Below are positions 13,325 to 49,251 of a DNA stretch of 64,000 bases, piece after piece. Position 1 is the stretch's first letter, and each line of letters begins with the position of its first letter. The notes under the pieces are model-generated. The model was not told where the DNA came from, made no database searches, and saw only the letters and a list, made by a program, of their open reading frames with translations. Made by a program: the position numbers and the translations under genes. The stretch lies in assembly GCF_009914755.1 (NCBI RefSeq), contig NC_060927.1; one strand, 5' to 3'. Origin of the DNA: the human T2T-CHM13v2.0 reference genome, Homo sapiens.

Positions 13325-13660
13325 ACAACTCTGTTGGTTGCCAACAACAGAACCCAGCTGCCACTACTATTTAATGTTGTCACAATGGAGAATCCAAGGC
13401 AGAGTGGAACTTCCCAGCCTCAGAAAGGCAGAAACCAGGAAAGCTAAGGTTGTTCAACTTCAGTGATGTTTCTTTGTCATGGGTTCAGTGAAGTTTCTCA
13501 TCATGGGTTCATTTACTTAGGAAAAGAATTATATAGTTATTCTAGCTTGCTCTTGTTTCTGGGACAGTTGGCCAGCCCCATCTTACATTACTGGTAGATT
13601 ATAGTTAGATCTGGTTATAGGAGAATCAGTGTGAGCTGAAAGGTATCCTAATGTGTGTCG
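13325..13660 (-). mobile_element. Old MLT1-like LTR remnant
   Basis: 'actctgttggttgccaacaacagaacccag' resembles the terminus of old MLT1 elements; highly diverged. Confidence 0.4.
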
Positions 13661-14199: not shown

Positions 14200-15400
14200 T
14201 AAAATTCTGAAATTTTACTAATTATTTTTAAACACTTAAAAGCATTCATACATATTGATCTTATATCAGGACAAAAAAATTTCAACAAATTTCCTGTAGC
14301 AGAAATAATTATTTGCAAACCATTAACAAAATCAGAGAAATTAAAAAAAACCCACCACATCTCCAATCTATTTATTTTAAAAATTTTAATTTTATATTAA
14401 ATAATATATTAAAGCATAATAGACAAATTATGAACTATTTAAAATGAAAGACATTAAGATCCTCACATATCTAAAACTGTGAAATGTGACCAATGCAGAA
14501 AAATAAATTAGAAGGAATGAGCAAGTGTAAAATCAAAAATTAATGAAATAGAATCACTAATATTTGATTTGAAAATCAAAAGCCAGTGTTTTTAAAAGAT
14601 TGATCAAATAAACAAGCTTACCTAAAAATAATAGGAAATGTTATTTACGTATGGAAGAGATTTTTAATAAGACAAGACTAGATGTAAATATATATCAATA
14701 AATATAAAGGAAATATAATAATTTTACGGTAATTATCAAAACTGAATAAGGAGAAGATTTGAATATAGCGTAAAATAATTTTAAATGATAGTCAAGTGTG
14801 TACTACCAACATGGTCCATTTCAATTAAGTTTTCAAAGAGCAGATAATTCCCATGTTGTGTCAGTTATTGCAGAACATTAATAAGTGGAAAGTTTCACAA
14901 TCCGTTCTCTAAATATAGTATAACCCAAATATCGTGAGATTGAAAAAGAAAACTGTAAGCTGAGATAACTTATAAGTATATGCTTAAAAATTTTAGCCTG
15001 AAATATTACCATATTGAATTCAAAATTACAATAAAAATTCTAATATATTATGAACAAGTGTTAACAGGAAGGGTTTATCTTAGGAATGCAAAGATAGTTC
15101 TGCCTAAGTATATACTTTATTGAGAAAAACATAAAATTCACTTGGCAACAGATAAATTGTTTTATAACATCCATAATTCATTTCACATTTTAAAAACAAA
15201 ATACAGACAAACAAAACTACAATGGAAGAAGAAAACGTCCTCAACTAGACATCTGCCAAAAATGTAAGTCAGACATAATTATATTTAACCATAACACAAT
15301 TAGAATCTGTTTGATTAAAGAAGAAAAGAAAAAGTTTCTGTTTTTACTGTTACTTTGCAATATTATGCTAAAGCATTGCAATAAGAAAAAAAATACATAA
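14200..15400 (+). mobile_element. Ancient L1M ORF2 remnant
   Basis: A-rich with degraded ORF2 motifs (aaatttcaacaaatttc; tttaaaagattgatcaaataaacaagc; gggtttatcttaggaatgcaaagatagttc). Confidence 0.6.
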
Positions 15401-20900: not shown

Positions 20901-21915
20901 AAATAGCATATAAAGTTCTGACAAGGAAGGTCATAAAGTTTAAAAATGATCCTTAAGATAAGACTTTTTTCTGAAAAGTAGCTTAAGAGAAATGATTTTC
21001 ATAGTTCTAAATCTTAAAGCATCACCAGCAAATACATGAAGTTTGACCTATTCTCCATATGTGTACATTTTCATAACTTGTCTTGCTAGTTGGGAAGGTC
21101 TCCTAAATAACAGTGGTTTTCAGGCAAACACTAAATGAAATTTTGATGGGAATATTATAGACAGAATTTAAGCATCAAATGAATGATTCAACTAGTGACC
21201 TTGAAAGTCATTTTGCATCTCTGAAAATCTCTAGGGTTTTTATGAGGATGGTGGAAATTAACTTGAGGGCCTGTTGACCTAGCTTGACCTATGACTTTTG
21301 TTTACACAAATGCATTTTTTTCCAGATACCCTATTAAAATATCATTGTAAAGTTATTGAATAATAACACCATACAAAAACAGTGTAGGTTTAATTTGTCC
21401 CCACCACCAGCATATTGTGGACAATCTCTTACATGGACAGGTAAAATGAACTGTCCTGTTCTGAGATAGTGGGCAAGAGAGACCATGTAACAAACCCTGA
21501 CTGTCTAGATCATCCAGAATGCCCTGGCAAGTTCACTTCCATTTAGTGAAGTGAGATAATTTGGCAATTCACGCAAGAGACTGAGAACCAAGCCTCAAGC
21601 CCTGCCTCTGATTCTGCAGGTATGGTAAGTCTTTCATGCCTTTCTGTGTTTCCAGTGCTTCTTCATGGGCAGATTATTTTTAAATCTACTTCACAGTCAC
21701 TATGTAACTAGTATATGTTTAAAAATAAGCTATATTTAGGGGAGGAGTCAATTCTCCCTTACAGGAAAAAATTCATTATTTTATTTCCTAAATTTTATTC
21801 AACTTCAGGTTTTACTACTGGGGAAACACTGAATTACAGCACAAAGTGAATGACTTCAGGATAAAAGATTTCAAACTTTAAAAAGCAATTAATTTATTTC
21901 TCCTTTCACCCACAG

Positions 21916-21963
21916 GTCTACCCACGGATAGCGCCGGCATTTTGGCACTACCTGCGGGTAGAA
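21916..21963 (+). CDS. EPHA6: Candidate EPHA6 48-nt in-frame cassette microexon (VYPRIAPAFWHYLRVE)
   Basis: Strong acceptor tttatttctcctttcacccacAG and donor GAA|GTGAGT; 16 stop-free codons, phase 0/0 matching the phase-0 start of exon 22359; 4 CpGs in 48 nt within CpG-poor DNA. Confidence 0.75.
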
Positions 21964-22358
21964 GTGAGTAGCTGGTACTTGAATTCTCCCACCTTTGCTC
22001 CTTGCACTCTGCTGGTGTGCCCATTTTGCTCAAGATGCAGCTGCCATTCTGTGTAAACATATTCTCACACCACCATCATTTCTTACAGTTGGGTCAGGAA
22101 TCTAAATCACCAAAAATACAAGTGCAGTTTATATAAGACTAATCATCTTTCTTAATAAATTTCCAAATAGGACCATATCATATGCATCATTATGATAAAC
22201 AGCTAAATGCCAAATTATGGAAAACCATGCTAACACTACTTTGTAATCAATACTTTTGGTATTCAGAGCATAATTTCTCAGTTAAACTTTGGAATGTTTC
22301 TAGGAAAAGGTAGAATAACTCTGTTTCATTTCCTTTCTCCTTTTTTTCTGTCCCCCAG

Positions 22359-22521
22359 GAACATGAGCAGCTGACCTACTCTTCCACAAGGTCCAAAGCC
22401 CCCAGTGTCATCATCACAGGTCTTAAGCCAGCCACCAAATATGTATTTCACATCCGAGTGAGAACTGCGACAGGATACAGTGGCTACAGTCAGAAATTTG
22501 AATTTGAAACAGGAGATGAAA
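22359..22521 (+). CDS. EPHA6: EPHA6 coding exon, C-terminal half of second fibronectin type III domain (EHEQLTYSSTRSKAPSVIITGLKPATKYVFHIRVRTATGYSGYSQKFEFETGDE-)
   Basis: Long polypyrimidine tract + cccccAG acceptor at 22357-22358; donor A|GTAAGT at 22522; 163 nt (phase 0 to 1); Eph FN3 motif GLKPxTxYVFxxRxRTxxGY. Confidence 0.96.
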
Positions 22522-49142: not shown

Positions 49143-49251
49143 CTTCTGACATGGCAGCAGAACAAGGACAGATTCTCGTGATAGCCACCGCCGCTGTTGG
49201 CGGATTCACTCTCCTCGTCATCCTCACTTTATTCTTCTTGATCACTGGGAG
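49143..49251 (+). CDS. EPHA6: EPHA6 transmembrane exon ((T)SDMAAEQGQILVIATAAVGGFTLLVILTLFFLITG(R))
   Basis: tctctgtttcAG acceptor, AG|GTAACT donor; 109 nt (phase 1 to 2), in phase with the previous exon; about 24-residue hydrophobic helix. Confidence 0.96.

What the first reader, a model, noticed from the sequence alone, without database searches (positions are those of the whole stretch)
21916..21963. Hidden 48-nt in-frame microexon inserting VYPRIAPAFWHYLRVE into the second FN3 domain of EphA6
Seen: textbook splice sites, exactly 16 codons, symmetrical phase 0, 395 nt upstream of the FN3 exon, and four retained CpGs suggesting purifying selection. It is too short for the ORF track. Inference: inclusion adds an aromatic/basic loop in the membrane-proximal FN3 domain just before EHEQLTY, which could alter clustering, cis-ephrin or membrane contact, or shedding. 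I recall a similar insert in rodent EphA6/Ehk-2 sequences but cannot verify it.
Basis: partly seen in the sequence, partly recalled or inferred. Interest (0 to 1): 0.72.

Follow-up and report, generated by a model that had tools for sequence, protein, structure and literature searches.

The report
Conserved hairpin-forming EPHA6 alternative exon
This is a real but already annotated 48-base optional exon of the brain receptor gene EPHA6 that adds 16 amino acids, almost unchanged from frogs to humans, to the domain next to the cell membrane, and its RNA folds into a tight hairpin that may control whether it is used.

Summary
Window 21916-21963 is a 48-nt, phase-0, stop-free exon with a strong acceptor and a GTGAGT donor. 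It encodes VYPRIAPAFWHYLRVE and carries 4 CpGs (o/e 0.98 versus 0.195 for the window). It is not hidden: the hub's RefSeq table lists it as an exon of other EPHA6 transcripts.

Protein searches found 73 database proteins with the insert, 72 of them EphA6 models. All named ones are tetrapods, from mammals to frogs and a caecilian. In 65 of the 72 models it sits exactly between YYEK and EHEQ; seven have truncated or mispredicted upstream sequence. 55 of the 73 are identical to human. Seven fish and six muroid rodent entries lacked it, and no human Eph paralogue has a similar one.

The junction lies in the C-C' loop of the membrane-proximal FN3 domain, which grows from 8 to 24 residues. AlphaFold gave no confident shape for it.

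New here: the exon is itself a 17-bp hairpin (-24.6 kcal/mol, z -5.4). Only 4 of 5000 synonymous recodings fold as well. The predicted fold also pairs most of the 5' splice site.

Human junction reads and orthologous DNA could not be examined. The exon counts as known; its function is unstudied.

The parts
21889..21915 (+). Branch-point candidates (yUnAy at -27 and -23), polypyrimidine tract and CAG acceptor of the alternative exon
   Evidence: No AG lies between the candidate branch points and the acceptor. Acceptor score 9.08 bits on a crude matrix built from recalled frequencies.
21916..21963 (+). 48-nt phase-0 alternative cassette exon of EPHA6, encoding VYPRIAPAFWHYLRVE
   Evidence: plus the hub's RefSeq table, which lists it as an exon of other transcripts.
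21917..21962 (+). Exon-spanning RNA hairpin: 17 bp in blocks of 7+3+3+4, three A.C 1x1 mismatches and a 6-nt loop. Codon k pairs with codon 17-k.
   Evidence: -24.6 kcal/mol, z -5.42, 0 of 200 shuffles fold as well; inverted repeat of 19-nt arms; synonymous-recoding null; rank among all 48-nt windows; mean pair probability 0.94-0.98 with flanks of 0-200 nt.
21964..21969 (+). 5' splice site GTGAGT, predicted to be mostly base-paired
   Evidence: for the sequence. P(paired) is 0.84-0.95 at +1, 0.48-0.99 at +2, 0.92-0.99 at +3 and 0.76-1.0 at +5 across five flank sizes. CAC at -5..-3 of the acceptor is the partner in some contexts.
21993..22045 (+). Densest UGC/YGCY cluster of the whole window: 7 UGC in 50 nt, at +30 to +82 of the downstream intron
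   Evidence: the only place in 64 kb with 7 UGC per 50 nt. It is partly conserved in the read-through ORF P0002 (LLVCP.C).
22065..22079 (+). YCAY cluster: 4 YCAY, starting at +102 to +113 downstream
   Evidence: 0.16% of 30-nt windows in the 64 kb hold 4 or more YCAY.
22359..22521 (+). Downstream constitutive exon (163 nt), encoding the rest of the C-C' loop and strands C' to G of the second FN3 domain
   Evidence: plus the hub's table.

Best explanation
Window 21916-21963 is a genuine protein-coding alternative cassette exon of EPHA6. It is already annotated in RefSeq.

(1) Age and constraint. It has been kept under strong purifying selection in tetrapods.

(2) Protein effect. Inclusion inserts 16 residues (5 aromatic, 2 Arg, 2 Pro) directly after strand C of the membrane-proximal FN3 domain. 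This lengthens the C-C' loop from 8 to 24 residues. By FN3 up-down topology, that loop lies at the same pole of the domain as its C-terminus, which is about 14 residues from the transmembrane helix.

(3) Likely protein role (inferred). The insert changes how the membrane-proximal part of EphA6 meets the bilayer or partners in the same membrane, such as ephrin-A in cis or neighbouring receptors. It probably does not change ligand binding in trans.

(4) Splicing (inferred from folding only). The exon is skipped by default. It is short, and it folds into a stable hairpin that, with its flanks, pairs most of the U1-binding site. Inclusion would then need factors that open the hairpin or override it. 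The unusual UGC/YGCY and YCAY clusters just downstream are candidate binding sites for such factors.

Shown: the anatomy, conservation, loop position and in-silico hairpin. Inferred: the splicing mechanism, tissue regulation and protein function.
For: Anatomy and chance:
-.
- The sequence is unique in the human genome.

Conservation:
- 55 of 55 hits carry the exact 16-mer.
- 72 of the 120 listed rows score 76-113 bits and carry the insert. The next row drops to 40 bits and has none.
- of 73 insert-bearing proteins, 55 have the V form, 13 A, 2 D, 2 D..D, and 1 is the caecilian form VVSRIAPGFWRWLRKE.
-, on 64 usable sequences of 73: mean pairwise identity is 0.960 for the insert, against 0.920 and 0.953 for the flanking constitutive FN3 segments.
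- Skipped isoforms exist in the same species, for example Ascaphus P0055 versus P0074 and Gallus P0017 versus P0086.

Protein position:
- solved FN3-2 structures of EphA8, EphA4, EphB1, EphB2, EphB4 and EphB6 match the domain. The alignments printed (EphA8 and three EphA4 sequences) have a 16-residue gap exactly at YYEK|.
-, control model without the insert: pLDDT 84-94, strand C at 26-35, C' at 44-48, junction at K36|E37.

Literature:
- EphA2 FN2 binds anionic lipids and anchors the ectodomain at the bilayer (PMC4744086; abstract and section 8 read).
- FN3-2 takes part in cis binding of ephrins. EphA6 T493 and R494 are listed as predicted cis-interface residues (PMC3857839, passages). By orthologue numbering these lie 10 residues after the junction K483|E484.

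Hairpin:
-.
- Hairpins at 5' splice sites limit U1 recruitment in MAPT exon 10 and SMN2 exon 7 (PMC11802352, passages).

Intronic clusters.
Against: - No transcript or junction data could be examined. Human inclusion rests on the hub's RefSeq table, and most database proteins are computed models.
- AlphaFold2 gave no confident structure for the insert. pLDDT was below 50 for residues 92-99 and 106-117, and the C' strand was lost. A structured role is therefore unproven, and the insert could even destabilise the domain.
- The EphA2 lipid-binding residues and the predicted cis-interface residues sit at the opposite pole of the domain (BC, C'E and FG loops) from the C-C' loop.
- The hairpin is a thermodynamic prediction for naked RNA in one species. 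Its conservation could not be tested because no orthologous DNA was available.
- The caecilian peptide can still support 16 of 17 pairs, but this is not significant (P = 0.18 with random residues at the same positions, 0.05 with random positions).
- There is no GCAUG within 400 nt, and no UGC between the pyrimidine tract and the acceptor. The usual RBFOX and SRRM4 signatures are therefore absent.
- Frogs, turtles and other species have the insert form as 'isoform X1' or as their only model, so default skipping may not hold everywhere.
Confidence: 0.8

Rival explanations
1. The exon is real and the peptide is what selection sees. The hairpin is only a relic of a palindromic origin, or a side effect of general nucleotide-level constraint in a conserved alternative exon, and has no role in splicing.
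For: The peptide itself is one of the rare ones compatible with the fold. Only about 1 in 10,000 random 16-mers can support all 17 pairs, so fixing the amino acids fixes many pairs. Conserved alternative exons commonly show synonymous constraint from splicing enhancers (established knowledge, recalled).
Against: Only 4 of 5000 uniform synonymous recodings and 10 of 3000 GC-matched ones fold as well. 11 of the 16 wobble positions are paired. The hairpin persists at pair probability 0.94-0.98 in every flank context and takes in the U1-binding site. It is the most stable 48-nt fold outside repeats and the pseudogene area in 64 kb.
Confidence: 0.3
2. The RNA hairpin is the primary selected element, for example a regulatory or editing substrate in the intron or pre-mRNA. 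The open frame and the conserved peptide would then be by-products.
For: The hairpin statistics. All three internal mismatches are A.C, which is the favoured ADAR context (recalled knowledge). The caecilian H11R change corresponds to A32>G, which would close one of these mismatches (inferred).
Against: The caecilian version has 6 amino-acid changes yet keeps its length and frame and has no stop. Variation is concentrated at residue 1. Annotated coding isoforms include the exon in many species. There is no Rfam family: the best hit is 21 bits against a threshold of 92. The bases next to the three mismatched A's are poor ADAR contexts.
Confidence: 0.08
3. The exon is annotation noise or a non-productive splice product with no function.
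For: Most evidence consists of computed gene models. The selected human transcript skips the exon. A homodimer prediction and the fold of the insert gave nothing.
Against: 15 of 16 residues are invariant in 72 of 73 proteins spanning mammals to frogs. The insert is at least as conserved as the neighbouring constitutive exons. Its splice sites are as strong as constitutive ones, and nothing comparable occurs by chance in 64 kb. CpGs are retained.
Confidence: 0.03

Closest known systems
Stem-loops that mask 5' splice sites of alternative exons (MAPT exon 10, SMN2 exon 7)
   Same: A local hairpin overlaps the U1-binding site of an optional exon. In those cases it lowers U1 recruitment and balances isoforms (PMC11802352, passages).
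   Different: Here the whole exon (46 of 48 nt) is the hairpin, in register with the codons. The effect on splicing is only predicted. No mutational, probing or covariation data exist.
Neural microexon programme (SRRM4/nSR100-dependent, 3-27 nt; 51 nt or less in looser definitions) - recalled knowledge
   Same: A short, frame-preserving, deeply conserved exon in a neuronal receptor gene, inserting a surface loop.
   Different: At 48 nt it exceeds the strict limit. There is no UGC element between the pyrimidine tract and the acceptor; the nearest upstream UGC is at -260. Neural specificity was not tested. No paper in the searched library links EPHA6 to microexons.
EphA2 FN2-membrane docking and EphA3 FN3-2 cis-ephrin interface
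   Same: The same domain, next to the membrane. It has been shown to bind anionic lipids (PMC4744086) and to take part in cis attenuation (PMC3857839). EphA6 T493 and R494, 10 residues after the junction, are listed as predicted cis-interface residues.
   Different: Those sites lie on the BC, C'E and FG loop pole. The insert is in the C-C' loop at the opposite, C-terminal pole. No solved Eph structure has an insert there.
Other annotated EphA6 inserts at or near the same place
   Same: Meriones models carry a different 25-residue insert at exactly the same YYEK|EHEQ junction (P0106 and P0107). Bird models carry an optional segment just after this FN3 exon (P0017, P0086, P0052).
   Different: Their sequences are unrelated, they are lineage-restricted, and they do not show the tetrapod-wide conservation seen here.

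Membership tests
Frame-preserving alternative cassette exon | Canonical AG acceptor and GT donor with usable pyrimidine tract and branch point | tested here: met
Frame-preserving alternative cassette exon | Length a multiple of three, no stop, same phase at both ends | tested here: met
   Orthologue junctions read YYEK|insert|EHEQ. The phase of human exon 6 was not read directly from the genome.
Frame-preserving alternative cassette exon | Both included and skipped isoforms exist in the same species | tested here: met
   Annotated models: Ascaphus P0055 versus P0074, Gallus P0017 versus P0086, Anolis P0045 versus P0088. For human, the hub's table. These are models, not reads.
Frame-preserving alternative cassette exon | Junction reads in human tissue | not testable with these tools
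   No RNA-seq resource was available
SRRM4-type neural microexon | Length 3-27 nt | tested here: not met
   The exon is 48 nt. It fits only the looser limit of 51 nt or less.
SRRM4-type neural microexon | UGC-containing enhancer just upstream of the acceptor | tested here: not met
   there is no UGC between -259 and the exon
SRRM4-type neural microexon | Neuron-specific inclusion, SRRM4 dependence | not testable with these tools
   No expression data were available
Structure-masked alternative exon (MAPT exon 10-like) | Stable local helix that includes the 5' splice site | tested here: met
   This is in silico only.
Structure-masked alternative exon (MAPT exon 10-like) | Structure conserved, with covariation between species | not testable with these tools
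   No orthologous DNA was available. The peptide-level proxy was inconclusive (16 of 17 pairs possible in the caecilian, P 0.05-0.18).
Structure-masked alternative exon (MAPT exon 10-like) | Stem mutations change exon inclusion | not testable with these tools
   This is an experiment
Eph receptor second FN3 domain | Flanking sequence folds as and matches Eph FN3-2, and the insert maps to a loop | tested here: met
   (top fold matches are EphA8, EphA4 and EphB1 FN3). One search places the junction at the start of the C-C' loop.
ADAR editing hairpin | Double-stranded stem with A.C mismatches, and observed A-to-I editing | tested here: inconclusive
   The stem of 17 bp (20 with the three mismatches) has three A.C mismatches. 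It is short, the neighbouring bases are unfavourable, and no editing data were available.

The most novel reading that the evidence does not exclude
The exon is a dual-coded switch. An in-frame codon palindrome makes the pre-mRNA fold into a hairpin that hides its own 5' splice site. Inclusion is then gated by whatever opens that hairpin: a helicase, proteins on the downstream UGC/YCAY clusters, or A-to-I editing at its three A.C mismatches, one of which would recode His11 to Arg, the residue the caecilian has in its genome. The same nucleotides encode an aromatic/basic loop that tetrapods added at the membrane-facing pole of EphA6 to retune membrane docking or cis-ephrin silencing.
Probability: 0.2. 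Interest if true: 0.65.

Novelty: already known. Interest (0 to 1): 0.4.

Why it matters
EphA6 is a poorly studied brain Eph receptor. A 16-residue insert that has stayed almost unchanged across tetrapods, in the domain that touches the membrane and takes part in cis-silencing, implies an isoform-specific function that expression constructs based on the selected transcript would miss.

The exon is also a compact, testable case of overlapping protein and RNA-structure codes in one 48-nt unit.

None of my five EphA6, Ehk and peptide literature searches found a paper describing it. The exon itself, however, is ordinary in kind and is already in RefSeq.

Tried and rejected
Literature:
- EPHA6 + microexon: 0 papers.
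- The peptide as a search string: 0 papers.
- EphA6 + alternative splicing + FN3: 1 unrelated paper.
- Ehk-1/Ehk-2/splice: 6 listed, none about this exon judging by title and abstract start.
- EphA6 + exon inclusion: 5 listed. Only PMC1431701 was opened, and it lists Epha6 only among 'tethered/Tmcat' variant loci.
- EphA6 + alternatively spliced + neuron: 10 listed, none relevant by title.
- One search was badly framed and told nothing.
- The Irimia 2014 microexon paper is not held. Splicing catalogues and supplements that might list this exon were not seen.

Paralogues:
- The exon-7 homologues of 9 other human Eph genes were found. Gene names are my guess from chromosome positions.
- No similar peptide lies within 1.5 kb on either side of them. 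Best local scores were 22-35, against a shuffled mean of 27 and maximum of 38. Longer introns were not scanned.

Structure:
- The AlphaFold2 model with the insert gave low confidence for the insert. I make no claim of a beta-hairpin or helix.
- The fold search only returned FN3 domains.
- A two-copy complex prediction of the insert-bearing FN3 domain returned 'no answer' (score 0.02). It counts neither for nor against self-association.

RNA families:
- Nothing came near any gathering score.
- I rejected the mir-9198 match (21 bits against 92, minus strand) as chance hairpin likeness.

Other:
- Minus strand: only the antisense mirror ORF expected from a palindrome, with no sign of a gene.
- A direct look at human exon 6 was not completed. 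The human upstream junction therefore rests on primate orthologues.

Full report
WHAT IS THERE

Window 21916-21963 is 48 nt and translates to VYPRIAPAFWHYLRVE. Upstream lie candidate branch points at -27 and -23, a pyrimidine tract and CAG. Downstream lies GTGAGT. The next exon starts 395 nt later at 22359 and reads EHEQLTY... in frame 1. Inclusion and skipping therefore both keep the frame.

The exon has 4 CpGs and a CpG o/e of 0.98, against 0.195 for the window. Only 8 places in the 64 kb reach 4 CpGs per 48 nt. By the hub's table the other seven are masked repeats, the TPTE2P7 area, or the coding exon at 49143.

I scored splice sites with a crude weight matrix whose frequencies I recalled, so the scores are approximate. 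The sites score 9.08 (acceptor) and 4.07 (donor) bits, within or above the range of the four constitutive exons. This is the only pair of sites this good, 9-60 nt apart and of length 3n, on either strand of the window. The DNA and the peptide occur once in the human assembly.

NOT HIDDEN

The hub's RefSeq table lists 21916-21963 among 'exons of other transcripts' of EPHA6. The exon is therefore annotated in human, although the selected transcript skips it.

CONSERVATION

A 16-residue query was too short for the protein search. I therefore sent the unaltered translation of 21916-22035, which is the exon plus intron read-through.
- All 55 hits carry the exact 16-mer.
- 54 are EphA6 models. They come from primates, rodents, bats, cetartiodactyls, pangolin, marsupials, platypus, birds, crocodilians, lizards and a frog.
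- One (P0002, unnamed source) is a read-through ORF.

A second search used the frog FN3 region. A third used a profile of 43-residue segments (A1).
- Together they added turtles, snakes, canids, guinea pig, more frogs and a caecilian.
- In one search the scores are bimodal. 72 of the 120 listed rows score 76-113 bits and carry the insert. The next row scores 40 bits and has the direct YYEK|EHEQ junction.

Of the 73 insert-bearing proteins:
- 55 read VYPRIAPAFWHYLRVE;
- 13 read A at position 1;
- 2 read D at position 1;
- 2 read D at positions 1 and 16;
- the caecilian reads VVSRIAPGFWRWLRKE (10 of 16 identical).

Of the other 70 database proteins held, 57 have the direct junction and 2 (Meriones) carry an unrelated 25-residue insert at the same junction. 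My pattern could not parse the junction in the remaining 11, and apart from P0115 I did not inspect them.

I compared conservation on 64 usable sequences. Nine were dropped for truncated or mispredicted flanks or a one-residue indel: P0002, P0004, P0006, P0012, P0019, P0054, P0056, P0071 and P0133. Mean pairwise identity is 0.960 for the insert, against 0.920 for the 36 residues before it and 0.953 for the 54 after it. The optional exon is at least as constrained as its constitutive neighbours.

The read-through ORF P0002 also keeps parts of both intron flanks (60% identity over 63 residues).

WHERE IT IS ABSENT

- All seven fish EphA6 proteins that I fetched (two gar, two bowfin, cod, perch, Eleginops) have YYEK|EHEQ with no insert.
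- None of the six muroid entries has it: Cricetulus P0135, Microtus P0137 and P0125, Myodes P0115, Meriones P0106 and P0107.
- No mouse or rat record appeared by name.
- These are annotation-dependent negatives.
- Nine other human Eph genes have no similar peptide within 1.5 kb of their homologous exon.

On present evidence the exon is specific to EphA6 and to tetrapods.

PROTEIN CONTEXT

Solved FN3-2 structures of EphA8, EphA4, EphB1, EphB2, EphB4 and EphB6 match the flanks. The alignments printed (EphA8 and three EphA4 sequences) show a 16-residue gap exactly after YYEK.

An AlphaFold2 control without the insert (P0134 with a 49-row alignment) is confident, with pLDDT 84-94 over residues 1-90. 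It places strand C at 26-35, C' at 44-48 and the junction at K36|E37. The insert therefore enlarges the C-C' loop from 8 to 24 residues.

The model with the insert (P0003, same rows) keeps the FN3 core at pLDDT 75-86. The insert and the following C' segment fall below 50, so no shape can be claimed.

Consecutive FN3 strands reverse direction. The end of strand C and the end of strand G therefore lie at the same pole, and strand G is followed after about 14 residues by the transmembrane helix (sequence). The insert thus sits at the membrane-facing pole. This is an inference from topology.

Two papers bear on what that domain does.
- Chavent et al. show that EphA2 FN2 binds anionic lipids and holds the ectodomain at the bilayer (PMC4744086; abstract and section 8 read).
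- Falivelli et al. show a role of FN3-2 in cis binding of ephrins. They list EphA6 T493 and R494 as predicted cis-interface residues (PMC3857839, passages).
- By orthologue numbering the junction is K483|E484 and T493 is the T of SSTRS.
- Both published surfaces are at the other pole of the domain, so the link is suggestive only.

THE EXON IS A HAIRPIN (NEW)

- Exon positions 2-47 pair with each other: 17 bp in blocks of 7, 3, 3 and 4, three A.C mismatches and a 6-nt loop.
- The minimum free energy is -24.6 kcal/mol. Dinucleotide shuffles average -12.3 with sd 2.27, giving z = -5.42, and 0 of 200 shuffles fold as well. The inverted repeat also appears.
- The pairing is in register with the reading frame: codon k pairs with codon 17-k.
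- Only 4 of 5000 random synonymous recodings of the same peptide fold as well. The figures are 10 of 3000 for GC-matched recodings and 0 of 3000 for codon-order shuffles.
- 11 of the 16 wobble positions are paired.
- About 1 in 10,000 random 16-mers could encode all 17 pairs.
- Among all 63,953 windows of 48 nt, 26 windows at 5 places fold as well. The other four places lie in masked repeats or the TPTE2P7 area.
- The stem keeps a mean pair probability of 0.94-0.98 with flanks of 0-200 nt.
- Most of the U1-binding site is predicted to be paired across the five flank sizes that include it. Exon positions -3 and -2 are at 0.82-1.0. Intron position +1 is at 0.84-0.95, +2 at 0.48-0.99, +3 at 0.92-0.99 and +5 at 0.76-1.0. 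In some contexts the partner is CAC at -5..-3 of the acceptor.
- No Rfam family fits.

The hairpin would explain why one synonymous CpG is kept: the third base of GCG pairs with a C.

Whether the hairpin is conserved could not be tested without orthologous DNA. The caecilian peptide can still support 16 of 17 pairs, which is not significant (P 0.18 or 0.05 depending on the null).

INTRONIC SIGNALS

- The densest UGC cluster of the whole window (7 in 50 nt) lies at +30 to +82.
- Four YCAY motifs start at +102 to +113.
- There is no GCAUG within 400 nt, and no UGC near the acceptor.
- From recalled RNA maps, these clusters fit activators such as MBNL or NOVA binding downstream. This is a lead and is not shown.

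MECHANISM AND RIVALS

Most likely this is a real coding cassette exon whose use is limited by its small size and by a hairpin that masks the donor site. When used, it adds a long aromatic/basic loop at the membrane pole of EphA6.

The rivals are:
- the hairpin is a relic without function;
- the RNA is the selected element and the peptide a by-product;
- the exon is annotation noise.

The last is all but excluded by conservation.

KNOWN OR NEW

The exon is already in RefSeq, so as a feature it is known. None of my searches found a paper on it. Splicing catalogues and supplements were not seen. The closest known mechanism is the 5' splice-site stem-loop of MAPT exon 10 and SMN2 exon 7 (PMC11802352, passages). 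It fails two defining features of SRRM4-type microexons, namely length and the upstream UGC.

LIMITS

- I had no RNA-seq data and no orthologous DNA.
- Human exon 6 was not read directly.
- Most orthologue evidence consists of computed models.
- The splice-site matrix and several mechanistic comparisons rest on recalled knowledge.

Noticed in passing
window 21993-22045 and 22065-22079: The only place in the 64 kb with 7 UGC in 50 nt lies 30-82 nt downstream of the exon, followed by 4 YCAY starting at +102 to +113. Both look like intronic splicing-regulator sites.
   Followed up: partly
window 21509-21624: An annotated 116-nt exon of other transcripts lies 291 nt upstream. It has a weak acceptor (-6.3 on my crude matrix), a strong donor, and stops in all three frames. 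It looks like a non-coding or alternative 5' exon.
   Followed up: partly
window 22382-22432: The hub's table lists a transcript with exon pieces 22359-22381 and 22433-22521. The 51-nt gap begins TT and ends GC, not GT..AG. This is probably a model or alignment artefact. If real, it would delete 17 residues of the FN3 core.
   Followed up: partly
window 13398-13448: This annotated 51-nt exon is preceded by AA, not AG, so it is more likely a transcript start than an internal exon. The exon at 15207-15263 has a very weak acceptor score (-10.4).
   Followed up: no
P0106, P0107 (Meriones unguiculatus EphA6 models): An unrelated 25-residue insert sits at exactly the same YYEK|EHEQ junction. None of the six muroid entries returned has the 16-residue insert, so it may have been lost or replaced in muroid rodents.
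   Followed up: partly
P0017, P0086, P0052 (bird EphA6 models): Birds have an optional segment of about 33 residues between this FN3 exon and the transmembrane exon (TLFKIAVPLP... in chicken).
   Followed up: no
P0024, P0027-P0029, P0054, P0056, P0069 (pangolin, hippo, cattle, whales, fox): These models carry an optional segment of about 24 residues (VNG.HSQCP...) between the kinase domain and the SAM linker. Many models also differ by the 42-residue kinase-domain insert (RSFP...IPAG) or by skipping the first FN3 domain.
   Followed up: no
window 21889-22029, minus strand: The antisense frame reads ...FYPQVVPKCRRYPWVD..., a mirror of the sense peptide, as expected from the codon palindrome. 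There is no sign of an antisense gene.
   Followed up: partly
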